IMG/VR virus record: IMGVR_UViG_3300025653_000122
Span: 1-34,570 of that record
Length of the DNA: 34,570 nucleotides
Origin: a virus
Lineage: Duplodnaviria > Caudoviricetes
Direction: 5' to 3' (one strand)
This document shows positions 3,926 to 34,000 of the stretch, piece by piece (the first letter of the stretch is position 1; every line of letters starts with the position of its first letter). The notes beneath the pieces were generated by a model. The model worked only from the letters and a program-made list of their open reading frames with translations, was not told the DNA's origin and made no database searches. The position numbers and the translations under genes are program-made.

Positions 3926-4113
3926 AGGAAGTAAAAAAACTCGATAAAGAGGCAAGGGAAATCAAGAAAGAAGTTCTCAAAATGTGTTGGTATATGAGAG
4001 GTCTTTCTTACAGTGAAGGCATGACTCTGGGTTATGAAGAGAGAGAAATCGTAGCCGAAATAATCAAAGAAAATATCGAAACAACTAAGAAAACGCAGTT
4101 GCCTTTCTTCTAG
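3883..4113 (+). CDS. gp51-like small baseplate assembly protein, probably made as the -1 frameshift extension of the upstream chaperone
   Basis: 'LKMCWYMRGLSYSEGMTLGYEEREIVAEIIKE' resembles gp51/tail chaperone T segments; no ATG at its 5' end (track start is TTG 3910). Confidence 0.65.
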   Translation, partial: FRRKILTLPLPEILQEVKKLDKEAREIKKEVLKMCWYMRGLSYSEGMTLGYEEREIVAEIIKENIETTKKTQLPFF

Positions 4114-6458
4114 GCCGCTAGTAATTTCTTAGCATCTTTTACAGCATCGGGTCCTAATTTTTTAATTTCAGAAGCAAGTGATTTTATGTCCACAGGAGCA
4201 GTTGTAGGGCTCTGTGCTGTGTTTTGTTGATCTGTTGGTGTAGTTGTAGTGTCTCCGCCTTGACCACCGCTTGTTGACGCTGTATTTGTGTCTGTGGCGC
4301 CATCTGTAGGTGCTCCTACTGGATTGCCTGTCTTGTCAAGATTGTCTTCGGGTGAAGCATCGGGAGATCCTGCTTTTGGTTCGGCAATTGGTTTGCCAGT
4401 TTTATCCATAAGACCCGCTTTTGGAAAATTATAAGTTTTGTTCTTTTCGTCCTTGATTGACAGGTGGGTTTCACGACCATCTTCGGACGGGCCAACAATT
4501 GTTCCTTTCATCTGTTGACCTTTACTTGTCTTGAATGTGACTTCGGTTCCCTTTTCAATGCCTTGCTTTTTCAATTCCTTGGCTGCTGTAAATTCTTTTT
4601 CTACTTGTTTTTCTTCCTGTGGAGAAAGACCTCTTCCAAGTCTTAAGGCTCTCTGTTCCTTTGCTTTGCCTAGTGCATCTGCATCATCTGTTGTGTCATC
4701 TGTTGCTGCTGGTTCGTCTCCGCCTGCATTGGTATCTGCCGCGCCTGTGTCAGTGGTGCTTGAACCTTCATCGCCTGCTGTTGAATCCTTAGGACTATCT
4801 GCATTTGTTTCTGAATCTGCTGCTGTTTCATCTTTATCACCATCCGGTGCATCCGTTGCCTTAGGAACTTCAATCTTCATCGAATCGTAAGTGCCCTTGA
4901 TAACATCATCTGCAACACCCATGTTCTTGATAATGTCGTAAACTTCTGCGCTGTCTGTGGGTGAATTTGCTTTCTTCCATGCACTCATTAACTTTTCTGC
5001 GGTTACCTTTGTGGTAATCTGCTTGCCTGCACCCTTCATGAAACCGCCAACCGCTGTCGCTGCTTTCTTAATTGCATCAAGTGGTCCTTCATTGATTGTC
5101 TGTTTGTTGCGGTGTGCGAGTGCATCAAACACGCTTTCAAACATCAGTTTGTTTTCCAGCATGTGGGTGTTTACTGTTTCTAATCTGTTAAACAGTAGAT
5201 AAATTTGTCCTTCGGAAAGTTTCTGTCCTACGTATGTTTTGCTTTCCTTAGGTGCTTCTCCGTCTGTAAGTTCTGCTTTTTCTTCTGGACTGATGGGTTT
5301 TGCGTCGTGCATATTTTTTGCATTATCATCAACCGTCTGTAGAGCACCCTGTGCTGCTGCGGCTGCGCCACCACCGATGTCCATAATTTTTTCAATTGCT
5401 GCATCTGCGTTATCAAGCACGGCAATGGCAGCATCCATCTGAGGACCTGTTAGTTGATCCTTAGGTATATCTCCAATTGTCTTTGCAAGTGCTGTTAGAT
5501 CTGCATTTGCTTCCTGTGTGGTAGATAGGAAACCGTGTAACTTGCCTGCTGCTTCATAGTATTCTGGACTAAATGTATCTGCCGCATAATAGGCATTAGT
5601 TAATTCTTTGTATTGTGCTACTTGATCAGGAGTCATTGTTAAATCATAGTTATAAAAGAATCCGTTAATGTTACCTGACATTTTTAAATTCTGAGCACCA
5701 TCAAGCACACCTGCATCAAAACCTGCATCTGCTACTGCCTTGTCCACTGCCGCTGTAAAGTTGGCTTTTTGAAATTGATCCAACATGGCATCGGCTTCTG
5801 CTTCACTGGCACTTGCAATATTGTCAATGATGTTGTCACTTATGCCTTGGATTGCTGCACCAGCAAGAGCACCATATGCTGCTGTTTTGACTGACTTACC
5901 AACCGCTGTTGAAAGTTTTGATCCCTGTAATAAATCTTTTGTTGCTCGTGCAAGGAAACCTGCTACTGCGCCGCCCGCTGGTCCGGCTGCAAGTGCAGCG
6001 GCTGCTGTTAGGATACCCACTGCTATGGTTGCCTTGCCTGGATTTTCCTTTGCCCAGTTGCTTACGCCCTGAATGGCTTGGACAATCTTTGAATCCTTGT
6101 TGTTTGCCGTAATCTGTTGTTTGAGCTTTTCAAATTCTGCATCCGCATTTTTGATCGGACCTGCCTTCTGAACCATTCCGCCCAATTGATTGATTAGGTC
6201 ATCAATTTTTTTCACGGCCTCCACGGGCAGTTTTGCTATGTCAACGGTCTTGCCCGCCAGCGTTCTATTGTCTCCGGCATTCTGTTCAACGCTCTTGAAT
6301 ATTCCCGCAATTTGATCCTGCGAAAGTGCTGCTTCAAAAATTACCTGTTCAACACTGGCCACCCAGGGTGTTATCACACGCTGTTCAAAAAGTGTTAGTT
6401 GGGGATTACCAAATTCTTCAGTAACCATCTTTCTATTTTGTATCTGGCCAAGTCTCAT
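4110..6458 (-). CDS. Probable virion internal (head/ejection) protein, 782 aa, with a Gly/Ala hydrophobic hairpin and acidic low-complexity linkers
   Basis: Long ORF coupled to the upstream gene by a TAATG overlap at 6458; under a late promoter; N-terminus MRLGQI...VTE; hydrophobic segment ATIAVGILTAAAALAAGPAGGAVAGFLA. The function is inferred. Confidence 0.55.
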   Translation of the reverse strand: MRLGQIQNRKMVTEEFGNPQLTLFEQRVITPWVASVEQVIFEAALSQDQIAGIFKSVEQNAGDNRTLAGKTVDIAKLPVEAVKKIDDLINQLGGMVQKAGPIKNADAEFEKLKQQITANNKDSKIVQAIQGVSNWAKENPGKATIAVGILTAAAALAAGPAGGAVAGFLARATKDLLQGSKLSTAVGKSVKTAAYGALAGAAIQGISDNIIDNIASASEAEADAMLDQFQKANFTAAVDKAVADAGFDAGVLDGAQNLKMSGNINGFFYNYDLTMTPDQVAQYKELTNAYYAADTFSPEYYEAAGKLHGFLSTTQEANADLTALAKTIGDIPKDQLTGPQMDAAIAVLDNADAAIEKIMDIGGGAAAAAQGALQTVDDNAKNMHDAKPISPEEKAELTDGEAPKESKTYVGQKLSEGQIYLLFNRLETVNTHMLENKLMFESVFDALAHRNKQTINEGPLDAIKKAATAVGGFMKGAGKQITTKVTAEKLMSAWKKANSPTDSAEVYDIIKNMGVADDVIKGTYDSMKIEVPKATDAPDGDKDETAADSETNADSPKDSTAGDEGSSTTDTGAADTNAGGDEPAATDDTTDDADALGKAKEQRALRLGRGLSPQEEKQVEKEFTAAKELKKQGIEKGTEVTFKTSKGQQMKGTIVGPSEDGRETHLSIKDEKNKTYNFPKAGLMDKTGKPIAEPKAGSPDASPEDNLDKTGNPVGAPTDGATDTNTASTSGGQGGDTTTTPTDQQNTAQSPTTAPVDIKSLASEIKKLGPDAVKDAKKLLAA

Positions 6459-7369
6459 TAGAGCAACCTCATTAATTGTTGTTTTTCTCTCATCGGAAGA
6501 TTAGATAATTGATCTGCGAGTTCTGGCGGTAATTTTGAACCGGGTTTTGCAAATTGATCCTTGGCTGATTGTCCCGCGGATTTCAATGCTCCGCCAAAAC
6601 CACCACCCTGTGCATCCGCAGGCGCACTGCCCTTGCCAGTGTCTATTTGACCACCTTCATCGCGTTCAATTGCCTGTCTAACTGCTGCCATAAAAATCTT
6701 ATCTAACTGTCCGCTACTTAATACTACTGCGGCATCGTCCTCAAATATAAACTGTGCTTCGCTCCAGTCAATTGATTGATTAACAAGTTTTTTCTCGCTT
6801 GGTAATGGAATCTTTTTCTTGCCACCCTTGATTGATATTCCATTATCTGTATTGGGTTGGTTTCCTGTTTGTGTGTTTTGATTGGGTTGGTTTCCTGTTT
6901 GTGTATTTGTATTTTGATCGGTGTCGGACTTCTGTGCATCTTGTTTTGCCATTGCATCCTTGGCACCTTTTATACCACCCTTAACTGCATCAACTGCTCC
7001 CTGTGCAACGTTTCCTATGCCCTTGGCAACATTGCTAATTCCTTTTCCTATACCACCAGCAACCGTTCCTACAGCGGATCCAATCTTCTGCCCGGTTGTA
7101 ACCTTGGACATTTCCTCTTCGGCGGCTCCTGTTGGGTAATTGTTTTTCTTAAGAAAGTCTATTAATAATTGTGGTGTAGCGTCTTTTTTAATTTTTCCAA
7201 GGTAGATTTCAAATTGATCTTTCAACCAGTTTGCTTCCTTGCCTGCTTCCAGATCTCCCTGTGCTCGTTTATCACCCGCAAATGCCTTTACTCGTGAACC
7301 CATTCTTGATAAAAAACCCTGAGGTGCTTCATCGATCTGTTGTTCCGTAATGATTTCTTCTAAACGCAT
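6458..7369 (-). CDS. Probable virion internal protein, 303 aa, distantly paralogous to the downstream 782-aa protein
   Basis: Starts MRLEEIITEQQIDE; late promoter at 7401-7408; shares the LSxxQ(I/L)xxIF motif and a similar C-terminal helix with its neighbour. Confidence 0.55.
   Translation of the reverse strand: MRLEEIITEQQIDEAPQGFLSRMGSRVKAFAGDKRAQGDLEAGKEANWLKDQFEIYLGKIKKDATPQLLIDFLKKNNYPTGAAEEEMSKVTTGQKIGSAVGTVAGGIGKGISNVAKGIGNVAQGAVDAVKGGIKGAKDAMAKQDAQKSDTDQNTNTQTGNQPNQNTQTGNQPNTDNGISIKGGKKKIPLPSEKKLVNQSIDWSEAQFIFEDDAAVVLSSGQLDKIFMAAVRQAIERDEGGQIDTGKGSAPADAQGGGFGGALKSAGQSAKDQFAKPGSKLPPELADQLSNLPMREKQQLMRLL
6851..6904. repeat. 30-bp-period tandem duplication (24 identical bp) encoding NTQTGNQPN twice
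   Basis: ATTGGGTTGGTTTCCTGTTTGTGT at 6851-6874 and 6881-6904. Confidence 0.9.
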
Positions 7370-7400: not shown

Positions 7401-7408
7401 TATTTATT
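7401..7408 (-). promoter_or_regulatory. Late promoter AATAAATA
   Basis: Minus-strand AATAAATA ~32 nt upstream of ATG 7369. Confidence 0.65.
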
Positions 7409-7423
7409 CCTTTACACTGTGAG

Positions 7424-7519
7424 TAAGATCTAAAGATCTTATGCGTTTTCGCTTGCGCTCAACGCATTTTTTCTTCTTTCTTACTTTATATATATGAACA
7501 CAACAACTGCGAAGCAGTT
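7424..7519. repeat. Cluster of three inverted repeats around an AT-rich spacer (terminator or DNA-hairpin element)
   Basis: TAAGATC-TAAA-GATCTTA (7424-7441); ATGCGTT...AACGCAT (7441-7467) followed by a T run; AACTGC-GAA-GCAGTT (7505-7519). Confidence 0.7.
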
Positions 7520-7523
7520 TTGT

Positions 7524-7873
7524 TAGCATCATGTAGATAGTAGAGCCACAATTCGCCCGTTGCCGGACGAATTAGTGTTGTTGAGCTTCATGTGAGTTAG
7601 CGTCACCAACCTGTTAAAGAAGATTACATATAATATGTGTGGAGGCGGCAGACCTTCAACCCCCTACTTCAGCATTCGCAATATCCGCGGAAAGCAGTTA
7701 ATCCCTAACAGTCGAAATCACTTGCTTTGTGGTTGTATCTTTTTCACAGAGCCACATCTTTCATGCCTTAAGTTAGCATTGTCCTTGCAACGCACCAGTA
7801 TCTGAACGCACACTGCCCACACGGCAGGCGTCCTCAAGATGGGTCGAGCAGCCCCGACCAAACCATGTTGCTA
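7524..7873 (-). ncRNA. Candidate large structured non-coding RNA (~350 nt), family not recognised
   Basis: ORF-free and more GC-rich than other intergenic DNA. End-closing helix UAGCA-A-CAUG/CAUG-A-UGCUA; many internal helices whose G-U pairs work on the minus strand; 10-bp stem with GCAA tetraloop; 10-bp long-range pairing. Confidence 0.7.
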
Positions 7874-7875
7874 TG

Positions 7876-8325
7876 TTAAGCCTTGTTTTTGATGTGTCTT
7901 TCTAGGAGTGCCTTGCGCAATTTGTCTGAACCGCCTACTCTAACATTGATTATGCCGTTGTAATAATCGTCTGATTCCAATACCCTACGATCAAACTGTT
8001 CTCTTGCCTCGAGATATGACATTTCACCTCTGCCTCTACACATGTAAAGTATTTCCCTTGTAAAATTTTCTGGACCTAATGCTTCTACGTCAGCCTGTAG
8101 CCTATCGGATGAACCCCAATATTCCTTCCAGTCTGACTCCTTATGGCCTCTGCGTTTATTTTTCTTGCCTTTGAGAGGTGGCTTTGTGGTTTTAAATTTG
8201 GCTAATTTCTTGCCTATGTATTTTTTATTGTTGGTAGTATTGGTAATGAGATAAACGAAGCCTTCGTATTCATCAGGAATACTGTCAATAGTCTTGCCTT
8301 CAAATGTCCAACTCGCTGTCTCCAT
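7876..8325 (-). CDS. Stand-alone GIY-YIG endonuclease (Seg-like catalytic domain only, 149 aa)
   Basis: GFVYLITN...KYIGKK, 'YWGSS', 'ENFTREIL', catalytic-type Glu in 'YLEAREQ' and Asn in 'YYNG'; no C-terminal NUMOD/HTH DNA-binding modules. Confidence 0.85.
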   Translation of the reverse strand: METASWTFEGKTIDSIPDEYEGFVYLITNTTNNKKYIGKKLAKFKTTKPPLKGKKNKRRGHKESDWKEYWGSSDRLQADVEALGPENFTREILYMCRGRGEMSYLEAREQFDRRVLESDDYYNGIINVRVGGSDKLRKALLERHIKNKA

Positions 8326-21600: not shown

Positions 21601-22042
21601 TGCAATCAAAACAATAAGTGATGAAATAATTTATCATCCTGTCAAGTATAAAGTTTTATTTGGTAGCAAGGCAGCAGTTAAATTACAAGCGGAGTTTAAG
21701 ATTGTTAAGAATACAAGCAAGGCAATTAATGATAATGATCTCAAGGTAAGAATAGTGAATGCTATCAATCGATTTTTTGCAATTAGCAATTGGGACTTTG
21801 GAGATAGATTTTATCTCAGCGAACTAACAACTTATGTCATTAATTCAGTCGCACCGGATGTCACAAACTTTGTCATCCTGCCAAGGGCAACGGATCAATC
21901 ATTTGGTAGCCTTTTCGAAATTCAAAGCAAGCCAGACGAAATTTTTGTAAGCGGAGCAACGGTTGATGACATAAAAATTGTCTCAAGCATTACTGCTGCT
22001 GAAATAAGAACCGGTACTGGTACAGTAGTGAGTGATGCATAA
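18644..22042 (+). CDS. Baseplate wedge subunit, gp6-like (1132 aa)
   Basis: 'DFENIR...YL...FNDYIESS', 'ENFLELAERKESVLRIARMLSY', 'FADGTYGNLP', 'ESTDSIRQNAP..YYTQNRMVTGEDY'. Confidence 0.9.
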   Translation: MSTTSRQNNLILNQDWTRIYQTFRNADFKSYDFENIRRVIINYLRENYPEDFNDYIESSEYMALVDAVAFLGQSLSFRLDLASRENFLELAERKESVLRIARMLSYNAKRNIGASGLLKFNSISTTEDIIDSNGRNLAQQTVKWNDPTNTNWAEQFVLILNAAMSDNTEFGKGQGSATIQGIPTEQYRFRTTTNDVPLFTFTKSVAGRNMAFELVSTAFKDSETIYEEQPVPGNQLGFVYRQDGKGPSSANTGFFLQFKQGSLEFADFNIATPTTNETIAVESNNINNDDIWLFGLNSRGGQQTEWTKVDTLTGNNIAYNSLIGNIKNIYAVSTQPNDRVNLVFADGTYGNLPQGAFRIFYRVSNGLEYSIAPTDMRGISIDVNYVNKSGIAHTLTINLGLQYTVNNAAASESTDSIRQNAPALYYTQNRMVTGEDYNLAPLASSQNILKLKAVNRTSSGISRNYDIIDASGKYSSVNVFADDGYIYKQDSERSLFLKFTSKTEIINFLRQNIEGAFSDKDLYNFYITKYERVTFSEQTTVWTSITNDLNSGTGYFTNTIDNSLLKVGTYSTSSLKFLTVGSSIKFIPPTGFSFKKGKLVETNPTDIEQTNYIWTKVASVVGDGTNADRGALASGLGPITFNENIPTGAIASNIVPKFVNDLDVALETEITNLMFANLNFGLRYSTVDTSWKIIQNQNLDLINNFSLGKAGDTTNENLDASWLFAFVKENDQYVIRIRTLNYVFGSVEQNRFYFDKNEKAYNNLTGLLNKDLVNILGINSQTNSASALGRDYKFEITDTIEFDDGYESSKEIKLSFNDSDSDGVVDDPDSFIQVAGADVDANYLFFVKSTDEYGTEIFNIFDNSNNTIIIATREALINVNDYDDGQLIYFSDVAENRVKRVDRNTNTLILDSSYVAYIGRRNLKFQYTHAASEDRRIDPSVTNIVDLFLLTKNYDTAFRNYLAGATTEPVAPTTDSLRVEFGSNLSAIKTISDEIIYHPVKYKVLFGSKAAVKLQAEFKIVKNTSKAINDNDLKVRIVNAINRFFAISNWDFGDRFYLSELTTYVINSVAPDVTNFVILPRATDQSFGSLFEIQSKPDEIFVSGATVDDIKIVSSITAAEIRTGTGTVVSDA

Positions 22043-25000
22043 TGGCAGATAAAGTATATCCTAACAGTCAATTACCAATTAGAAAGTCTAGCGATTTATT
22101 ACCGCAGACTTTTAGAACGGATGTAAATGACAAATTTCTTTCTGGTGTTGTTGATCCTCTAATACAACCAGGTGCACTGGATAAATTGTCCGGATACGTG
22201 GGTAGAAGGTTTGGCAAGACATATAATGGTAATAATGTTTATCTTGATACTGATAACACCCTAAGAAGTAGATATCAACTGGAACCGGGTGTCACCGTAG
22301 AAAACAATCAGGTAGTAACCAAGTTCTATGATTATCTAGATTTTAAGAATATTGAAACTTTCTTTGGTAATGGTAATGAAAGAGATGATAAGACTACATT
22401 CCAGGAACACTACAGTTGGAACCCTCCCATTGATTGGGATAAATTTGTAAACTATAGAGAATACTATTGGGTTCCTGCAGGACCTCCCACCGTGGCTGTT
22501 TTCGGACAGGCGCAGAGCGTGCAATCAACCTACAAGGTTAATCAAGGAATAGGTTCATCGTGGGTGTTTACTCCAGACGGGTTAACAAACAATCCAACCA
22601 TTACCCTATACAGGGGACAGACATATGAATTTACAGTAAACTCACCAGGCGAGCCTTTTGTATTAAGAACAAATTATGATACTGGTAGTTTAAATTATGA
22701 GCCACTTAAAACTTACTTTCCTGGGGACCTTGCAGTCTTTGATGGTAAGTTATGGCGTGCCCTACAGGAAATTTTGCCCGGAGATGGCAGCACCATTGAT
22801 ATAGATTCGCAGGATTGGGAATTGCTGGATAGCTCAGCCTCTCTCAATAGTTTAATTTATAATAATGGTGTAACCAATAATTCAGTTGAAGTTGGAACTC
22901 TAAAGTTTGAAGTTCCACTGAATGCTCCGGACGTAATCTACTATCAGAGTGCGACTGATCCTAACAGATTAGGCAGATTTATAATTGCTGATATTGAATC
23001 TAACACAGCAATAAATGTAGAAAAGGAAATACTGGGCAAGACTTATTATACCAGTGCCAATGGTGTTGAACTATCAAACGGCATGGTGGTTGAATTCCGT
23101 GGACAGGTTGAGAGCGAACAGTATGCTACCGATACGTGGTTGGTTGAGGGTGTGGGCAAGGCAATCAATCTAATCCGATTTGCAGATTTGATTCCACCGT
23201 CAATCAGCGCAAACACTCCTGAGATACTGTTTGATAATCAAGGTTTTGATACACAACCATTTGACGATGCAACACTGTATCCTGCTAATAAGGATTACGT
23301 AACAATTAATAGAGCAAGTTCTGATTTGAACCCATGGAGTAGATACAATCGTTGGTTCCACAGAAGCGTGCTTGAATTTGCATATAACTACAGAGACAGT
23401 GATTTTGACGCACTAGAAACCGCAAGGGCAAAGCGTCCTATAGTAGAATTTCATCCCAACATAAAACTGTATCAACAAGGGACCACTGCAAAACAATCAG
23501 TGGACTATGTGGATGATTATACTAAGGATGTGTTTTCAACTATTGAAGGCAGCACGGGATATTCCGTGGATGGGGAAAGCCTATTTGAGGGTGCAAGGGT
23601 TCTAGTAACTGCGGATACTGACAATCTTGCAAATAATAGAATATATGAAGTCAAGTTTATAGTTCATAATGGAGTGAGGCAGATTACCCTACGAGAAACT
23701 GCTGACAGTGCTCCACAACTTAATGAGTGTGTATTAGCCAGCAGGGGAACCGCAAACGCCGGCAAGATGTTTTACTATGATGGCACGGTATGGAACCGTA
23801 GCCAGGATAAAACCACGGTAAACCAACCGCCATTGTTTGACGCCTTTGATGAGAATGGCGTGGCGTTGGATAATGTTGATACCTATCCTGTTTCGAGTTT
23901 TGCGGGAAGCAAAATTTTTAGTTACAAGCAAGGCAGCGGACCAATTGATTCAGAGTTAGGATTTGCAATATCATACCAAAACATTGACAACGTTGGCGAT
24001 ATCGAATTTAATTGGAATTGGGAAACTGAAACTTTCACATACACTGCAAATCAGCAGGCTTTTACTAGCAACATAAACAAGCACTACTATAGGGTAAATG
24101 ATGATTATGAAAATGGATGGATTAGATCCAATACGAAGTATCTACAGCCCATAGTTGATAGCACAAAAATTGTTGATGCTACCAGCACTGTTGAATTTAA
24201 CACTGTTGATTTTGAAAATCTCGCTGACGGCGCTGAAATAATTTTCTATCTCAACGGCAAGGAATTCAAGGAAGATTATACTAGGAACATAAACCAGTTT
24301 AGTTTTACAACTACGTTCCAACCCAAAGATATCGTCACGATAAAGATTGTGGGAGAACTCACGCCGGATCAGGGTTATTATGAAATTCCGGTTGGAATAG
24401 AAAAGAATCCACTCAACGAATCACTCGGTACATTTACTCTAGGACAGGCAACGGATCATGTAAGGACGGCTCTCGAGTTCGACACGAGATTTACAGGTAA
24501 TCTTCCTGGAGTTTCTAATCTTAGAGATATATCGGAGTTCGTTCCAAACGCCAAAAGATTCCTAAAGCATAGTGGTGTTGCGGCATCTGCCCTACTAATG
24601 TTGTGTGACAAGGACTTGAACATTATCAAGAGTCTACAGCATTCAAAGAAACAGTATTCTCTGTTCAAGGAAAACTTCATCAAAAAATCCTATGAAGTAG
24701 AAGATATCGAAAGCATACCCGACTTGGTTGATAGAATATTTGAAGAATTAAACAAAACCAAGAGCCCTGCCAGCGCATTTGCTGACAGTGACATGATTGG
24801 AACGGGTGCTTTTACCAAGACAGAATACACCGTGGAAGACACTGGGATACGAACATTTACTCTAAATGAAGGTTTTGATTTAGAAACTCTAAGCAGGCGT
24901 GCAGTCTATGTTTATAAAAATGGTTTGCAATTGCTCAACCAAAGAGACTATTCATTCAGTTCTGAATTTTCTTATTTGACTCTCTCCATAGATTTGGTAG

Positions 25001-28000
25001 AGGGAGACACTATTGAGATAAGAGAATATGTGTCAACGGCTTCATGCCACATACCACCAACACCAACTTCCATTGGACTGTACAAGAAATACACTCCCAT
25101 GAAATTTGTGGACGATACCTACAGGGAACCACAGGAAGTGATACAGGGGCATGATGGTAGCATCACCATAGCATATGGTGACTTCAGAGATGATGTTCTT
25201 CTTGAATTGGAATACAGAATATACAACAACATCAAGCAGGAATATGATCCTTCCGTTTTTGATATTGATGCAAACTTGGGCGGTTATTATGGCAACTCCG
25301 TATTCACCAAGGAAGAATTTGATGCAGTTGCCAACCAGGAATTTTTACGATGGGTAGCAAATACTAATCTAGGATATACTACCAACGATTACTGGAAGGA
25401 TACAGAAACATTTACCTATACCTACTCGAACATGACATCTCCTGATGGTTTAGAAAATTTACCAGGATGGTGGAGAGGAGTATACAAATATTTCTATGAC
25501 ACAGATAGACCCCATAGATGCCCGTGGGAGTGCTTGGGTTTCTCTGAAAAACCCGCATGGTGGGAAGATGAATATGGTGCTGCACCGTACACGAGCGGTA
25601 ACTTAATCCTTTGGGAGGATATCAGGGATGGTATAATCCGACAAGGAGATAGGGCAGGCACCTACAAGAGATACGCTAGAACTTCAATAATGAGACACGT
25701 GCCTGTTGATGAACACGGAAATCTATTGAGTCCGCTTGATAGTGGCTTGGCTGGAAATTTCACTCTCACTAACAACAAGGGAAGTTTTACTCTTGGTGAC
25801 GTATCACCAACTGAATATGCATACAGAAGCAGTTCCGAATTTCCATTCGTTGTTACAATGGCACTGTGTTTGCTCCGTCCATTTGAATACATAATCGCAA
25901 ACTTTGACAGAAGCAAAACTAAGAGAAACATTGCGGACCAAATTATAAGCAAGAACACAGGAGTGTTCATAAATCCTCAGGAGATTGAATTACCAATCAC
26001 TGGTGAGACAATAACTTCTGGATTGGCTTTTTATCTAGCCAGTTATCTAAAATCGCAGGGAAAATCAATTCCAGCGTCACAGGATGTGCTTTCAAACATA
26101 AACGTGAGATTGACATCAAGGCTAAGCGGTTTCGTTGACAAGACGCAGCAGAAATACTTGTTGGATTCAAAGAGTCCTGCTGCTTCAAGTTCAAGCATAT
26201 TCATACCCCAGGAAAATTATAATATTTTCTTCAACGTATCCGCACCAATACAGACTGTGAGCTATAGTGGTATCATATTTGAAAAGACTGAAGGTGGTTG
26301 GATCGTAAATGGATATGATGATGTTAATCCTTATTTTACAATTTATCGTGCCATTGCGAATCAGAAGGATCCAACTATATCGGTTGGTGGAGTTAGTGCA
26401 ACCTTTGTTAACTGGACGTCAAATCAGTTGTACAATAATGGCGCAATAGTACAATACAGAAACATGTTCTATAGGGCTAAACTCACCCACACCAGTGCAG
26501 ATGCCTTTGAGGAAGACAATTGGACCAAACTTCCAGAATTGCCAATCATAGGAGCAGCAACAGCACAGCGAAGAAGAACCTTCAACAGATTTAGAACTGC
26601 TAATATCAGTTACGGAACTACATTTAATAGTGTGCAGGATGTGGTTGACTTCCTGCTAGGGTATGAGGATTATCTAAAGAGCCAAGGATTCATATTTGAC
26701 AATTACAGCGCGGATAACCAAGCAATGCAGGATTTTACCACTGCTGCCAAGGAATTCATGTTTTGGACACGCAACGAATGGGCAGTTGGATCATTGCTGG
26801 CAGTCAGTCCGGGTGCTGAAAAAATTAAGGTAACTGTTCCTGTTGGAGTGGTTGACAACATACTTGACAGTTTCTATGATTACAACGTGCTCACTGACAA
26901 CGGTGAGCCAATGAATGTTAATAATTTTGATGTGAATAGAGAATTTCAAACTTTCACATTTAACATAAATGATACCACAAGAGGTTTATTCTATCTAAAA
27001 TTAAACTATGTTCTCAAGGAACATGTTGCAATATTTTCAGATAGAACGGTTTTCAATGATGTAATATTTGATAAGCCAACAGGTTATAGACAGGAAAGAA
27101 TCAAGGTGCAAGGATTCCGTACCGTGGACTGGGATGGAGATTACACTTCACCTGGATTCCTATTTGACAATGTAAACATAGACTCCTGGCAACCGTTTAC
27201 TGATTACAAACTAGGTGACATTATTAACTTCCAAGGAGTAAACTATACTAGCAAGAAGAATCATACTAGCCTAGAAGAATTTAATGCAAATAATTGGACC
27301 GTACTAGATTCAACACCAGAAAAAAGACTTATTCCTAATTATGATTTTAGAATTAATCAGATGGAAGATTACTTTGATGTTGATACTGAAGGACTTTCAC
27401 AGAGCCAGAGAGATCTCGCAAGGCACGCAATCGGCTATCAGACAAGAACCTATCTACAGAATTTAGCGGAAGACGAAGTAACACAGTTTAGATTGTATCA
27501 GGGTTTCATAAGAGAAAAAGGAACTAACAATTCATTCACTAAAATATTTAATAAACTTGGTAGAACTACAGATAGTGGTATTACACTGAAAGAGGAGTGG
27601 GCCTTCAAGGTAGGATCATTGGGAGGAATAGATCAGTCTAAAATAGTTGAATTAAAATTAGACACAGATAATTTTGTTTTAAATCCTCAACCTGTAATTG
27701 TTACTGATACAGAAAACATTGATTCAGTTGATAGATATTATAGAGTAAATCAATCAGACTTTGATTTTGCACCTATTCCTTATACGACCAAGATTAATCC
27801 AACTACCTCTGTGAAGGAATACATGAGGACGGCAGGGTATGTCAAGGTAGATCAAACAAAATATATTGTTAAAACTAGGGATGATATTTTAAACATTGAC
27901 ATTAATAGTGTTAGCAACAATGATCATATCTGGGTAACATTTGATAAGCAGAGTTGGACAGTTTTAAGAGTTAATTTTGTTAATGAACTTCCTATTGTTA

Positions 28001-31000
28001 ATCTTACAACAGAAAGAAATACTGTAACTCTTACATTTGGTAAGAGACATAATCTTAGTGTAGATGATATAGTTGGACTTAAAACTTTTGGAGATGTTGA
28101 TGGATTCCAAAAAATTACTGCTGTAACAAACTTTACGGCATCTTTCGTAACCGAAACGCCACCAATTGATTTAGAATTCGAACCAAGTTCGTTAAATTAT
28201 CCCATATTGTTAACCAATGCAAGATTTGAAAGTTACGATGTTTTGGATATAGAAAACACAGCACTACTAGATAAAAAATCAAAACTTTTCATTGATAACA
28301 ATGGAAATGATAGATGGGAAGTAGTTGAAAAAAATAAGATTTATTCTTCGAAAAAAATAGAATCTTTTGGCAGCTCTGTTCCTAAACACACAGGTAAAAA
28401 AGTTTTATACACAGAAGATTTACAACAAACCATAGGATCAATTCCGGGCTCGGGCATAGTTGTTGTTTACCTAGAAACAGCAACGGGTCTTTCTGTTAAA
28501 CAAATACTAGAACCTCTTTCAGGTTTCACAGGAGCAGTAGGAAATACCTTTGGAGAAGAACTAGCAATAAGTCCTGATAACCAATGGTTAGTGATTGGAT
28601 CGCCAGGTGCCAGTGGAGTTCCAACAAACTATAAAGGGATATTTAGTACCTATGAGACTTATGCTCCTAATGATATAGTTTTATATGAAGGAAATTTATG
28701 GAAGGCTAAGAATACAGTCTTAGGTGACGGAAGCACAATTAATGTTTACACTGAGGATTGGGAACAGACCTTTAACATTGAAGCACGAGAAAGTGGCACA
28801 AATCCAGGTTATGAAAACCAAGGAATGATTTCAATCTATAGATATAATGCCCAACAATGGAATTATGTTGAAAGTTACGTAAGTCCTAGAGCGGATGGTG
28901 ACAAATTTTTTGGTAGCAAAATTTCCATTGCTAAAACTACAGGCGGATATACCATGGCAGTATCTGCTCCTGGTTCCAACGATACCAAGGGCAGGGTATA
29001 CATATATGATTATACTGAAGCAAATGGTTGGAAGTTGATACAGAATCCTAATTATAGAGGAATATATCAACCAGGCGGAACACTTCCGGCTACTGAAATT
29101 TTAGCAGGAAGAACATACACAATTGATACATTAGGAACAACAGATTTCCGATCTCTGGGATCATTAAATAATACCCCAGGACAGATATTTGTGGCAAGAC
29201 AGAAAGGAGAAGGAACAGGAACCGTAACGCAGAATAGTTTCTATCCTAAGGGTTCGATAGTTTTTTACAATGGTAATTTATGGCAAGCATTGGAAGACAA
29301 CGAAGGTGACGGTAGCACAATTACTATTGAAAGTAATGATTGGATTAGACTAGACGAAGTTAATACTAATGTTTCTTTACCATCAAGCGTGAGCATAGAA
29401 GACGATGGATCAACACTAGCATCAGGGATACTTTCAGAAGATCAACTGGCAGAATTGATCAAAGAAGGAGATCGGTTTGGTAGTTCCTTGGCATTTGATA
29501 GTGATGCTTCAACTTTAGTTATAGGTGCTGTTCAGGCAGATGGACAATATTTTGCAAACTTTAGAGGAAACTGGCAGCCTAATTATGAATATGTAGAAAA
29601 TGATGTGGTAAAATACCAAGGCGGCTATCACAAATTAGAAAATTTAGGTGCAACATCTGTAGGACCTGATAGCACGATTAGAAGTTTCAATCAACCACCT
29701 GATGATGGTTATCCTTGGGTCAACGTTGGAGATAGTTCTTCAGAATCCGTTGGTAAGGTGTTCATTTATACTAAAAATGCACAAGGATTTTACAGTCTAC
29801 AGCAAACTATAACAGCAGAAAGTCTAGCAGAAATTAGTGATTTACCTGCCGAAGAAATTATTAGCACGGGTGATATGTTTGGTTATGCCATTGATCTAGA
29901 CCATACAGGAAACACACTGGTTGTTACTAGTCCAAAGGCTGATAAAAATTTACAAAATCAGGGCAGTGCATATATTTTTAAATATGAAACTGATTCAACA
30001 GCAACGAGATATAGACTAAAGCAGAAAATTGAAAGTTACGGAATTTATCCAAATGAATACTTTGGACAATCAGCATGCATTACAAATAATTCAAGCAAGA
30101 TTGTAATCGGTGCAAATAATACTGGTTATAATCTACCAATTAGATTTGACGGAAGTGAAACAAGTTTTGATGATTCGAACACTACATTTAGCACCTATGG
30201 TGGATATAGTGGTGCAGTATATGTGTTCGATCTCAAAGGATCGAAATATTTGTTAACTGAAAAATTAGAAGATGATTTAAGCACCAATGAATCATTTGGA
30301 TACAGTCTGTATTGTACGGATAATGTAATAGTTGTAGGATCACCAAACTATATTGAACCTACGACACACGGTCCAACTCTAGATTTTTCTGGCGACGTTA
30401 CAGGAATGATAAGGCTATTTAGAAAAGATTCAAACGTACAAAGCCTAAGCATAGTAGGAAGCGAACCCGATAGAGTGGATCTTTCAAGAATAAAAAGAAT
30501 TGCGTTATATAATGAAGCAGGCGACAATAAAATACAGGACATGGAAGTTGTTGATCCAGCAAAATTAAAAATTCTAGCGGCAGCAGAAAAAGAAATAGAA
30601 TACAAGACACTGTATGATCCAGCAACATACAATGTGGGATCTGAAGAAGTTGTTGTAGATAGTTCAGTGGCATGGTTTGACAAAAATGTTGGAAGACTAT
30701 GGTGGGATGTATCAAGTGCAAAATGGATTGACTATGAACAGGGTGACACAGCCTACAGATTAGCAAACTGGGGAGCACAGGCAGAAGGATCATCAATCAA
30801 GGTTTACGAATGGGTTGAATCCAAACTATTACCATCAGAATGGGCAGTGCTGGCAGACACCACCGAAGGATTACAACTTGGAGTTTCAGGACAACCGCTA
30901 TATCCTAATGATAACGTATACAGCGTTAAGGAATTCCTAAATGTAAACACGGGGCTGGTTACTGAAACAAAATACTACTATTGGGTAAGCAATAAGGTTA

Positions 31001-34000
31001 CGGTTCCTGAAAATACTCTAGGCAGAACAATTAGTGCAGCAGAAGTTGCGGCACTAATCAACAATCCTACCACTCTAGGAAACAGTTATATTGCACTTGC
31101 GGCAGACAATAGAATATTTTTCTACAATTACAAAAATATAGTGAGTGATAGCATTAGTGTGTTGAATCTTGAATATTATAATTCAGCAACAAATAACAAT
31201 GCCGCACACAACGAATTCCTGTTGCTAACTGAAAATGATGAAAACAGCGTTCCTAATGCCAAACTTGAGAAGAAGTGGATTGACAGTTTGGTTGGTTATG
31301 ACGTACAGGGAAATAGAGTTCCCGATCCAAACATACCTGAAAAACAGAAGTATGGAATGAACTTCCGCCCTAGGCAGAGCATGTTTGTTAATAGAAAACA
31401 GATTCTCCAGCAGAGCATAGAATACATTAATGGAATACTGGTTAAGGAAGCATTTGCAAACACGATTAATTTTGAAAAACTAAATCTTGTTGACAATGAA
31501 CCATCGAACGAATTGTATCTATATGATACCAAGGTTGATGGTGTGATTGATTTGGAGAATGTTGGAACGGTAAGGGTCAAGCAGGCAAAATTGTCAGCCA
31601 ATATTATTAATAATGAAATTTCCTCAATTGATATTGTTGATCCTGGATTTGGATACAAGCCACAAGAATTATTTGACACTGAAGCACCTGGCGTATACCC
31701 AGGACCAAAGGTTACCATACAGGGAGATGGAGCGGGAGCAGAAGCAATCACCCACATTGACAATCAGGGAAGAATTGTTGAGGTTGCAATGGTAAGTTCA
31801 GGATCAAATTACACGAATGCCAATCCTGTGGTAAGACAGTTTTCCGTATTGGTGGAAAACGACAGCACGGCAAACAACTATTGGTCCATCTATGCTTGGG
31901 ATGACATAAGACAGACATTCTATAGAAGTGCGTCACAGGCGTTCGATACCAGAAAGTATTGGAATTACGTTGACTGGTGGAAGACAGGATATGGAACGAC
32001 TTCAAGAATAACTAAGGAAATAGTTGATGTTTCGGTGGAACCTTCAATACAAACTGCCGTTGGCGATTTAATAAGAATCAAGGAATACGGTTCCGGTGGC
32101 TGGGCAGTATTTGAGAAAACGGCAGAAAGCAGTGATTTACCCTTGGGCAATTATGAATTGGTTGGAAGGCAGAACGGAACAATACAACTTTCTAAAAATT
32201 TATATGACACGGTTGTTTCTGGAGTTGGATTTGACAATGTGGTAAACTTTGATACCGGATTGTATGATTTGGAACCAACGGCAGAATTAAGGAACATCAT
32301 TAGTGCAGTCAAGGAAGATATATTCCGGGGCGATTACAAGATTGAATGGAACAGATTATTTTTTAACAGCATTAGATATGTGATGCACGAGCAAACATAC
32401 GTTGATTGGTTGTTCAAGTCCAGTTTCCTAAAGGCGATACACAACGTTGGTAATCTAAAGGTTATTCCTAACTATAGTAACGACAATCTAGAAAGTTATC
32501 AGAGTTACATAGAAGAAGTTAAACCATATAGAACAACCATTAGAGAGTATGTCAGTAGATACGAACAGTTAGAAGGTAACGGAGTAGCAGCCAATGACTT
32601 TGATTTGCCTGCTGTTTATTCTGATGTTGATGGAAAAATTATTGCCGTAAATGAAAATAGTACCTTGATGACACAACAACCGTGGAAGACATGGTTTGAC
32701 AATCGAGGCTACAGCATAACGGATATAGTGATATCCAACCCAGGCAGTGGTTATACCAGTCCACCAAGGGTAGTGATTGAAGGCAACGGTACCGGTGCAT
32801 CCGCACAGGCTTTCATAAGTAGTGGGTCAGTCACGGGAATTAGGATTCTTAACAAGGGAAGAGGATTCACCAAGACACCAACAGTTAGTTTGGTGGGTGG
32901 AAATGGAGCGTCAACGGATGTTGCAAAAGCAGTTGCTTATCTTGGTGAAGGCAACAGCAGAAGTTTCGAACTTAAGGTAAAATTTGACAGAATAAACAAG
33001 GAAGGACTGTTTACTAATTTTACGGATAGCCAGACTTTTACGGCAACCGGTAATACGGCAGTGTTTGACTTAAGATATGCGCCAACTGTTGACAAGACAA
33101 AGATTAGCATTACCAAAAACAATCAAACGGTGCTGGCTAGTGAATATTCCGTTTCACTGTTTACTAAGATAATCGATGGATATACCCTGTTGCAGGGAAG
33201 AATAGTATTCAACAATGCTCCGATACAGGGCGACGTAATCAAGGTTGAATATACCAAGAATGACGAACTGTTGGACAGCGTCAATAGAATTAACAAATAC
33301 TACTCACCAACGGAAGGAATGAAGGGCAAGGAGCTCAATCAGTTAATGACTGGTATAGACTTTGGTGGTGTACAAATACAGGGAACAACATTTGATGTGA
33401 CTGGAGGATGGGATGCACTACCTTGGTTTACGGACAGTTGGGATAGTGTTGAAAGCAGTGCGGATTACTATGTGGTTGCTGACGGTAGCACGAATGAAGT
33501 GACACTGCCTTATGTGCCAGCAGACGGACAGGAAATTAACGTCTATCTCAAGCGTGCAGGAGAAGGAACGCTTCCAACTATTGATAATTTGCAGTATAGT
33601 GAATCAGTAAAAAATCCTCCTGTAATTAGAATAGATGATCCATATTTTGGATCAGGTTCGCCAGCAATACCAGCAGTACCAGGCGTACCAGCAGATGCAG
33701 AATACAACAATGGTGCATTAATTGCCGAGAACAATGGTACAGTGTTTGACAGAGCCCTAACTGTAAACGGATTGAAACTGGTTGTTGCAGGAGCAGTAGG
33801 CGGACAACTAGCAGTACCAGATGAATGGGCAAAGAAAACTGCAAGAACATTTGAATTAATGACTGACCCTAACGGCGCTGGCATTAACACTACACATCAA
33901 CGCAATTTTATTAAAACACTACGTGGTGACGCTGGAACGAAACACGCAGGAATACCTACAGTACAAAGAGTTGGCTATGGCGGCGGAAGTACATATACAC

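What the first reader, a model, noticed from the sequence alone, without database searches (positions are those of the whole stretch)
7524..7873. Large multi-helix non-coding RNA with closed ends and a probable pseudoknot
Helices read by eye on the minus strand: terminal UAGCA-A-CAUG (7873-7864) with CAUG-A-UGCUA (7533-7524); GGUCGG/UCGACC; AUCU..GGACGC-CUGCC/GGCAG..GCGUUC-AGAU; AUGCU/GGCAU; UGUGG/CCACA; AAAGCA/UGCUUU; CGCGG/UUGCG; GGGGGU/GCCUCC; ACAUA/UAUGU; GUGA/UCAC; AAUUCGUCCG-GCAA-CGGGCGAAUU (7573-7550). CUGUUAGGGA (7711-7702), enclosed by the AAAGCA/UGCUUU helix, pairs over 10 bp with UCUUUAACAG (7620-7611) outside it, implying a pseudoknot or a switch. Many pairs are G-U on the minus strand and would be A-C on the plus strand, which points to RNA-level selection and fixes the strand. 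I cannot match it to tmRNA, RNase P or group I/II introns; in size and complexity it recalls ornate phage RNAs such as ROOL and GOLLD.
Basis: partly seen in the sequence, partly recalled or inferred. Interest (0 to 1): 0.8.

Follow-up and report, generated by a model that had tools for sequence, protein, structure and literature searches.

The report
Self-gripping phage RNA, likely replication primer
This gene-free stretch of a giant aquatic phage holds a conserved element of about 350 bases, predicted to fold as a doubly knotted RNA, whose two short repeats change together across relatives, which likely lets the RNA grip the DNA strand it is copied from and would start copying of the phage genome.

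Summary
The element is real. In 35 homologues a 65-pair structure is 98.9% paired, and 30 pairs change on both sides (shuffles 12.8). No Rfam hit, but a model of the window's core matches the uncatalogued 3' part of Polynucleobacter-1 (RF01718) loci at 42-91 bits: a longer family with swappable 5' domains. That is the layout of the ColE1 primer RNA gripping its template strand. DNA-type mini-hairpins follow. The RNA nearly always follows a small GIY-YIG gene, but small siphovirus-like phages carry it without one, in a slot where a relative has a gene with PolA-like motifs (seen by eye only). Best reading: replication pre-primer (about 0.5), untested; base-skew tests were inconclusive. Transcription strand and ends are not shown. 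The scan reported this family and idea before on other DNA.

The parts
7524..7873 (-). Structured element, predicted ncRNA of about 350 nt ('class A' 5' variant of the extended Polynucleobacter-1 family); ends not mapped
   Evidence: homology to Polynucleobacter-1-bearing loci
7787..7871 (-). 5' domain, exchangeable among relatives: P1 GCAAC/GUUGC (7871-7867/7791-7787), P2 (7859-7853/7848-7842), P3 CAUC/GGUG (7841-7838/7796-7793) with a variable inner arm
   Evidence: other loci carry unrelated 5' domains incl. RF01718
7728..7779 (-). P5 hairpin (7779-7775/7767-7763), A-rich linker, P6 hairpin (7756-7752/7732-7728)
7692..7727 (-). P7a/P7b stem-loop; its loop CUGUUA (7711-7706) is the 5' strand of pseudoknot 1
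   Evidence: 9 of 12 pairs with two-sided change
7641..7688 (-). Nested H-type pseudoknot 2: P8 GCGGAU/GUCUGC (7688-7683/7653-7648) crossing P9 GGGGG/CCUCC (7664-7660/7645-7641), with a conserved CCG linker; alternative helix CGCGG/UUGCG (7689-7685/7681-7677)
   Evidence: P8 4 of 6, P9 2 of 5 pairs with two-sided change; (CCGC invariant in 29 of 29)
7611..7616 (-). 3' strand of pseudoknot 1 (UAACAG)
   Evidence: 3 of 6 pairs with two-sided change, 99.5% paired
7587..7593 (-). Twin word, copy 1 (ACAUGAA), in the loop of a hairpin with a variable stem
   Evidence: stem read by eye
7551..7572 (-). P12 hairpin with GCAA loop between the twin words
   Evidence: 99% paired
7528..7534 (-). Twin word, copy 2 (ACAUGAU); its template-strand complement is the proposed pairing site of copy 1
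   Evidence: the pairing itself is inferred
7505..7519 (+). Hairpin with a C-GAA-G loop when read on the template (+) strand, DNA mini-hairpin type
   Evidence: hairpin within 45 nt of copy 2 in 160 of 167, loop C-GAA-G in 114; the stability of such DNA loops is recalled
7424..7467 (-). Two further hairpins on the non-template strand (GAGCG-CAA-GCGA type; GAUC-UUUA-GAUC) after an A/T-rich run; candidate signals on the displaced strand
   Evidence: GAGYG-N2-4-ARCGA in 150 of 167; role inferred
7401..7408 (-). T4-type late-promoter-like AATAAATA before the downstream ORF 7369-6458
   Evidence: seen in 90 of 167 loci; motif identity recalled
7876..8325 (-). 149-aa SegE-type GIY-YIG protein, catalytic domain only; usual but not obligatory neighbour, last gene of the gp55-gp47-gp46 run
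   Evidence: PF19835, E 3.5e-36; I-TevI catalytic domain Z 7.9, rmsd 2.7, 82 aligned

Best explanation
The element is a conserved structure predicted to fold as a doubly pseudoknotted RNA, and it likely acts in cis as a ColE1-RNA-II-like pre-primer that would start phage DNA replication. SHOWN: the pairing pattern by covariation, the identical twin 6-7-nt words with no complementary partner in cis, one copy per contig in five long relatives, mini-hairpins just downstream, and occurrence without the GIY-YIG gene. INFERRED: (1) the element is transcribed from the minus strand and folds while it is made; (2) the fold presents copy 1 in a loop so that it pairs with the template DNA strand at copy 2 as RNA polymerase opens that site; (3) this anchors the transcript so that it is not displaced and a persistent R-loop forms; (4) the 3' end, perhaps trimmed by an RNase H, primes the leading strand, while the hairpins on the opened strands load helicase or primase. 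The GIY-YIG protein is likely a neighbour from the recombination operon, at most an accessory.
For: Twin words: first 6 nt identical in 167 of 167 loci where fixed anchors located both copies (191 examined), across 10 different 6-mers; position 7 agrees in 151 of 167. Sets found by RNA pattern, which partly overlap the first: 98 of 98 located among 111 (of the other 13, 12 identical by eye and 1 a deletion); 98 of 105 by pattern and the other 7 identical by eye. The word switches repeatedly on the SegE tree and no SegE residue predicts position 2 (best normalised MI 0.41). In alignments of 48, 58 and 61 sequences no column changes in complement to the word; the column that tracks copy 1 is copy 2, by identity. 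Identity covariation is what pairing with the opposite strand predicts. Direction: 3 of 9 class D loci have G in copy 1 against A in copy 2, a G-T wobble if copy 1 reads the template of copy 2 and a mismatch the other way round (few events). Precedent: in ColE1 an rG stretch of RNA II pairing with a dC stretch of the template strand is essential for the persistent hybrid, and T4 oriF/oriG use R-loops (PMC4412123, passages; PMC5043065, passages). A template-strand hairpin follows copy 2 in 160 of 167, with a C-GAA-G loop in 114. One copy in each of 5 contigs of 185-282 kb. Small siphovirus-like phages carry a class B RNA with new twin words and no SegE (L618, L627, L714). G008 (25.6 kb, 85% complete) has 29 ORFs scanned, none matching a replication family in PHROGs, 13 with no match at all. 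In a relative (L717, same insert in L716 and L718) the same slot holds a 470-aa gene with PolA-like motifs by eye instead of the RNA.
Against: No experiment. GC skew at four-fold sites does not flip at the RNA, and the bulk skew flip in the window follows gene orientation at 12.2 kb; only AT skew differs between genes pointing away from and toward the RNA, which is confounded with gene class. SegE lies directly upstream in 75 of 80, 71 of 71 and 68 of 70 pattern-found loci, a tighter link than an origin needs. The PolA call on the L717 gene is not confirmed: no Pfam, PHROG or PDB match; the nearest Atlas cluster with a family is DNA_pol_A at score 0.77, a lead only. G008 is incomplete and ends at the RNA. 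A 6-7-bp pairing is weak on its own. Loci are related, so the counts overstate independent events. Strand and ends of the RNA are not shown (contigs only). My covariance models found no significant match in five cultured phages.
Confidence: 0.52

Rival explanations
1. A cis-acting transcription controller: the nascent RNA pairs with its template at copy 2 to pause, terminate or modify RNA polymerase at the end of the gp55-gp47-gp46-SegE operon, in the manner of HK022 put RNA (recalled), without priming DNA synthesis.
For: It explains the twin words equally well. The RNA sits at an operon end, before a late-promoter-like motif. RNA-library contigs run from SegE into the element and stop at 7613, 7600 and 7600 in three runs.
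Against: It does not explain the extra hairpins on both DNA strands or the exchange with a large gene in small phages. One of those contigs has a loose end and another run reaches 7545. 350 nt with two pseudoknots is much for a terminator.
Confidence: 0.16
2. A ribonucleoprotein with the SegE GIY-YIG protein: the RNA is the scaffold and the loop word is a guide that aims a nuclease lacking its own DNA-binding domain, either at the phage's own copy 2 (a nick for replication or recombination) or at rival alleles (homing).
For: SegE is adjacent in 75 of 80, 71 of 71 and 68 of 70 loci. The protein is a bare catalytic domain with invariant Y25, Y36, G38, E106 and N123 and a basic beta-hairpin. RNA classes are shuffled across near-identical SegE proteins.
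Against: RNA without SegE in L618, L627 and L714. SegE without RNA in phage Melnitz (69% identity, no model hit in the whole genome) and L198. A genome's own word is not depleted in that genome relative to others. ORFs or a promoter-like sequence can lie between gene and RNA (L053, L068, L072, L062, L076).
Confidence: 0.13
3. Both words pair with one partner in trans (another phage or host RNA), or mark the ends of a template that a polymerase copies repeatedly by realignment, as in telomerase or DRT2 (recalled).
For: Direct repeats flanking a hairpin are the layout of realigning templates, and two identical words would co-vary with a common partner.
Against: No RVT_1 in 5 of 5 long relatives (51-80% complete). 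No fixed complement within 1.5 kb upstream or 0.9 kb downstream. No joint between the words in 8 runs laid (contigs only). I did not run a genome-wide search for a co-varying partner.
Confidence: 0.1
4. A free ornate RNA (ROOL/GOLLD/OLE-like) or a ribozyme acting on its own, the twin words being protein-binding or multimerisation motifs.
For: Size and complexity; one RNA-library contig over 7661-7977 at depth 398 while other listed contigs of that run on the stretch have 2.7-10 (contig depth cannot rank genes).
Against: No Rfam match. Identity covariation at five positions is not explained by antiparallel self-pairing or by a fixed protein site.
Confidence: 0.07

Closest known systems
Polynucleobacter-1 RNA motif (Rfam RF01718; Weinberg et al. 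2010, PMC2864571: passages, supplement search and part 206 of file 5 seen)
   Same: Relatives carry RF01718 in the same slot behind the same SegE gene (L034 67 bits, L041 72, L197 98). The sequence after that domain matches a model built only from window-type cores at 42-91 bits in 28 of 28 class C loci given. Some rows of the authors' alignment already run on into this core.
   Different: The window lacks the 141-nt Rfam domain and has another 5' domain (no hit). The Rfam model omits both pseudoknots and the twin words. I saw no function assigned; the name occurs in 1 paper of the library.
ColE1 RNA II pre-primer (PMC4412123 and PMC5043065, passages; Masukata and Tomizawa 1990 not seen, cited through them)
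   Same: A long folded transcript with a short stretch identical to a downstream site, so that it can pair with the template strand there; single-strand signals downstream.
   Different: No sequence or Rfam likeness. About 350 nt against 550. The word is a variable mixed 6-7-mer about 60 nt upstream, not a G run (the -265/-20 positions in ColE1 are recalled). No antisense RNA I identified. R-loop and priming untested.
T4 oriF/oriG transcription-primed origins (PMC4412123, passage)
   Same: T4-like phage; transcript followed by an A/T-rich region; proposed R-loop priming.
   Different: The T4 origins are described as promoter plus unwinding element; no conserved pseudoknotted RNA or twin word appears in the passage seen.
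PA5oct ncRNA004 and two paralogues (PMC7318152, passages incl. Table 1)
   Same: PA5oct is among the nearest cultured phages by gp55 (51%). Its equivalent slot is gene-poor and paralogous to the transcribed ncRNA004 and to a third copy (83% and 79% over about 126 nt). By eye all three show a P8/CCG/P9-like pseudoknot and a long hairpin; ncRNA004 and the third copy show 5-6-nt twin words, while the slot copy is ambiguous.
   Different: Homology to the window RNA is not shown: no significant model hit. PA5oct has no SegE and has a RusA-like gene on the other strand there.
OMEGA systems (HEARO/IscB, TnpB) and IS110 bridge RNA (recalled)
   Same: A small nuclease gene directly beside a pseudoknotted RNA; a loop identical to a nearby DNA site, as in bridge RNA.
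   Different: GIY-YIG instead of RuvC/HNH or a recombinase; RNA and nuclease occur apart; only one 6-7-nt word; no transposon ends looked for.

Membership tests
Polynucleobacter-1 (RF01718) as catalogued | Match to the 141-position Rfam model at or above 37 bits | tested here: not met
   No hit in the window at gathering score or at E up to 10
Extended Polynucleobacter-1 family (this report) | Shared core and 3' module with loci that carry RF01718 | tested here: met
   Class A-only model hits L034 at 91 bits, L041 at 53 and L197 at 43; these loci carry RF01718
Extended Polynucleobacter-1 family (this report) | Twin identical words, loop and 3' tail | tested here: met
   ACAUGA at 7593-7588 and 7534-7529
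ColE1 RNA II-type pre-primer | RNA stretch identical to a downstream site, able to pair with the template strand | tested here: met
   Sequence condition only: identity covariation in 167 of 167; the pairing itself is inferred
ColE1 RNA II-type pre-primer | Persistent RNA-DNA hybrid, RNase H processing and extension by DNA polymerase | not testable with these tools
   Needs in vitro transcription and replication
ColE1 RNA II-type pre-primer | Replication starts at the element (strand-bias signature) | tested here: inconclusive
   GC4 skew does not flip; AT4 skew and gene orientation do, but are confounded
ColE1 RNA II-type pre-primer | Antisense RNA I control | not tested
   Only unstranded contigs were available
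OMEGA-like nuclease-RNA pair | Obligate co-occurrence of nuclease and RNA | tested here: not met
   RNA without SegE (fragments of 8-26 kb); SegE without RNA in the complete Melnitz genome
OMEGA-like nuclease-RNA pair | RNA-dependent DNA cleavage | not testable with these tools
   Biochemistry needed
ROOL / GOLLD / OLE / tmRNA / RNase P / group I and II introns | Rfam model match (ARAGORN for tmRNA) | tested here: not met
RT-templating RNA (DRT2, retron, telomerase-like) | Linked reverse transcriptase | tested here: inconclusive
   No PF00078 in 5 of 5 contigs, each 51-80% complete; none among 16 window ORFs scanned

The most novel reading that the evidence does not exclude
A widespread, programmable RNA origin: a pseudoknotted scaffold that uses an exchangeable 6-7-nt loop to recognise its own template DNA and prime replication with no initiator protein. 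It is shared by jumbo phages and small siphoviruses, where it is interchangeable with a minimal PolA-like primase-polymerase gene. The word would act as an identity tag, and the scaffold could be re-aimed by changing both copies.
Probability: 0.35. Interest if true: 0.85.

Novelty: new variant of a known kind. Interest (0 to 1): 0.62.

Why it matters
In my literature searches I found no account of how Rak2/PA5oct-like jumbo phages start replication and no function for Polynucleobacter-1, catalogued in 2010. The twin-word rule gives a direct test: change one word, then both. If right, a ColE1-type RNA-primed origin exists outside plasmids, in abundant aquatic phages, with a variable instead of a G-run anchor, and it moves between unrelated phage lineages. 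The small 25-30 kb phages that carry the RNA offer a minimal cassette, and PA5oct may offer a culturable test system if its look-alike elements prove homologous.

Tried and rejected
Rfam and ARAGORN on the window: nothing. blastn of three RNA variants against 50,697 GenBank phages: no match. Alternative genetic code: not needed; the region after 22 kb is one long open + frame. Promoter scan: 5 sites against 3.0 expected, none assigned to the RNA. An ORF between the twin words (ATG in copy 1 to TGA in copy 2 in the window) is not kept in frame in L001 or L003 (by eye). Copy 1 pairing with copy 2 antiparallel: cannot give identity at five positions. Complement in cis: none. Frequent cutter guided by the word: no word-specific depletion in 5 contigs and the window. 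SegE residue reading the word: not found for position 2; positions 1 and 5 reach normalised MI 0.61 and 0.70, which follows clade. Reverse transcriptase: none. Origin by base skew: inconclusive. Covariance models against PA5oct, Atu_ph07, RaK2, Vibrio 2.275.O and Melnitz: best E 0.01-0.3, none credible; class B matches only weakly (14-20 bits with R1, 18-32 with R2) and class D reaches 9.7 bits with R1. Single-sequence AlphaFold of SegE was poor (pLDDT 50); the alignment-based model was used (89). PolA identity of the L717 gene: not confirmed by Pfam, PHROGs or PDB profile search. RNA-library contigs stopping near 7600: a weak hint only; one has a loose end and another run passes it. Literature searches found no paper describing this RNA beyond Weinberg 2010. 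The library lacks most subscription papers. Large catalogues of candidate phage RNAs and their supplements (recalled: Fremin et al. 2022) were not checked and may list it, and the rest of the Weinberg alignment (part 207 onward) was not read.

Full report
Setting. The window is part of a T4-like jumbo myophage: baseplate genes, a late sigma factor (gp55, 12219-11389), gp47, gp46, an 85-aa ORF and a 149-aa SegE-type GIY-YIG gene (8325-7876), all on the minus strand. The nearest cultured phages by gp55 are Pseudomonas phages MIJ3, PA5oct and Paride at 51%, then RaK2-like phages at 38%. The finding begins two bases after the SegE stop codon. Rfam and ARAGORN give nothing. The held genome is the window itself.

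Observation. Alone, the minus strand folds slightly better than shuffles (z -1.88) and the plus strand does not (z -0.58). Homologues came from the SegE protein and, independently, from RNA patterns. On 35 distinct window-type sequences a 65-pair structure is 98.9% paired, with 30 pairs changing on both sides against 12.8 in shuffles. Many one-sided G-U/G-C changes favour the minus strand and RNA-type pairing.

Family. The same slot holds at least four variants. Class C begins with the Rfam Polynucleobacter-1 domain. A covariance model built only from window-type cores scores 28 of 28 class C loci given at 42-91 bits, class B at 14-20 bits in 5 loci and class D at 9.7 bits at best. The window RNA is therefore a 5'-domain variant of a longer element of which Rfam holds one exchangeable front part. 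L193 joins a class A front to a class B core, and RNA classes are shuffled across near-identical SegE proteins. Weinberg 2010 lists the motif in the passages seen without a function; some rows of its alignment already extend into the core.

The key feature. All classes end in a loop word, a hairpin, a (U/C)G(A/G)C motif and the same word again. With anchors that did not require identity, both copies were located in 167 of 191 distinct regions; the first six bases agree in 167 of 167, over ten words. Pattern-found sets, which partly overlap, agree: 98 of 98 located among 111 (12 more by eye and 1 deletion), and 98 of 105 plus 7 by eye. The word changes many times on the protein tree. No column changes in complement to it, and no complement lies at a fixed place nearby. 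Identity covariation implies pairing with the opposite strand or with a shared partner. The exceptions seen in class D (G in copy 1, A in copy 2, in 3 of 9 loci) are wobbles if copy 1 reads the template strand of copy 2. A hairpin follows copy 2 in 160 of 167 loci, and its loop reads C-GAA-G on the template strand in 114; a GAGYG..ARCGA hairpin follows on the other strand in 150. That such loops are stable in DNA is recalled knowledge.

Mechanism. ColE1 RNA II forms a persistent hybrid because an rG stretch pairs with a dC stretch of the template; RNase H then makes the primer and the displaced strand loads the helicase (PMC4412123, PMC5043065). The element has the same layout with a variable word. 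I reached this reading, before the word look-ups. Searches then showed 14 earlier AI reports on what appears to be this family, 13 with the same idea; they are leads, not support. Testing those leads: SegE is upstream in 75 of 80 (the other 5 had under 470 nt upstream), 71 of 71 and 68 of 70 loci. The two exceptions, L618 and L627, are small siphovirus-like phages with the RNA ahead of the terminase genes, with their own words and no SegE; L714 is a third. G008, 25.6 kb and 85% complete, shows no replication family among 29 ORFs scanned, 13 of which match nothing. In L717, and in L716 and L718 as far as printed, the slot holds a 470-aa gene instead; L713 holds another ORF. In 26 aligned homologues of the 470-aa protein R206, D233, F302-G303 and H402-D403 are invariant, resembling the PolA/TV-Pol core described in PMC2579912 (passages), but no library search confirms it. 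If confirmed, RNA and priming enzyme would be alternatives for one job. SegE folds like the I-TevI catalytic domain (Z 7.9), occurs without the RNA in phage Melnitz, and is absent from PA5oct, RaK2 and Atu_ph07; PA5oct and RaK2 have a gene annotated as a junction resolvase next to gp46.

Against. Skew at four-fold sites gives no clean origin signal. Five long contigs have one copy each, so the multi-copy claim of earlier notes was not seen in this clade. PA5oct has three paralogous non-coding elements, one in the equivalent slot and one the published transcribed ncRNA004; by eye they resemble the core, but my models do not detect them. Fourteen metatranscriptome runs hold part of the stretch. 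Of the seven RNA runs laid, one has a 352-nt contig over 7661-7977 at depth 398, and several run from SegE into the element. These are contigs, so strand, ends and level are not shown, and DNA carry-over is not excluded.

Verdict. A real, conserved, doubly pseudoknotted element; a new variant of a partly catalogued family; most likely a self-anchoring replication pre-primer (0.52), with transcription control (0.16), nuclease guide (0.13), trans partner or realigning template (0.10) and free ornate RNA (0.07) as rivals. Interest 0.62.

Noticed in passing
window 22042-34570 (+): One + frame has no stop codon in any 1.5-kb bin from 22.5 kb to the window end: a giant ORF of about 4,000 aa or more that runs off the contig and is missing from the ORF list.
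   Followed up: no
L717:4964-6376 (+); also L716, L718: 470-aa protein family (32 homologues) of small siphovirus-like phages with PolA/TV-Pol-like motifs by eye and no library match; it occupies the slot that holds the RNA in relatives.
   Followed up: partly
L618, L627, L711, L714 (G006-G008): Small, roughly 30-kb phages carrying a class B RNA otherwise seen in jumbo phages, behind a TTGACA..TATAAT-like sequence in L714; possible satellites or borrowers of a jumbo-phage origin.
   Followed up: partly
NC_071039.1 (PA5oct) 12.9 kb, 76.0 kb, 246.1 kb; L446, L445, L444: Three same-strand paralogous non-coding elements of about 500-900 nt, one being published ncRNA004; two ORFs annotated in the 76-kb slot overlap it and may be spurious.
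   Followed up: partly
window 7876-8325; PHROG 447: The family is labelled 'NAD synthetase' in PHROGs and many GenBank phages, but matches PF19835 and folds as a GIY-YIG domain.
   Followed up: yes
loci: Many contigs end within about 150 nt of the SegE stop, inside the RNA, suggesting an assembly breakpoint from mosaic alleles.
   Followed up: no
L451, L249, L257: Shortened elements: L451 lacks copy 1 and P12; L249 and L257 lack much of the 5' part. Natural deletions or assembly artefacts.
   Followed up: no
window 4110-6458, 6458-7369 and the genes after the RNA in relatives: The genes downstream of the RNA vary widely but often start M-[KR]-x-x-E-I...DEAP, behind an ATAAATA motif.
   Followed up: no
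window and G001-G005: Strong, genome-specific avoidance of palindromic 4-mers (AGCT 0.17 in the window and 0.15 in G002; CGCG 0.31-0.58), a hint at host restriction systems.
   Followed up: no
L379 (G001): Cluster of 27 tRNA genes in one freshwater relative, while G002, G004 and G005 show none.
   Followed up: no
L441 (Vibrio phage 2.275.O, 94.6-95.0 kb): Array of four or five related, roughly 60-80-nt inverted-repeat units in a non-coding stretch.
   Followed up: no
L193-L197: Jumbo-phage contigs carrying this locus are binned into bacterial MAGs in the genome collection.
   Followed up: no
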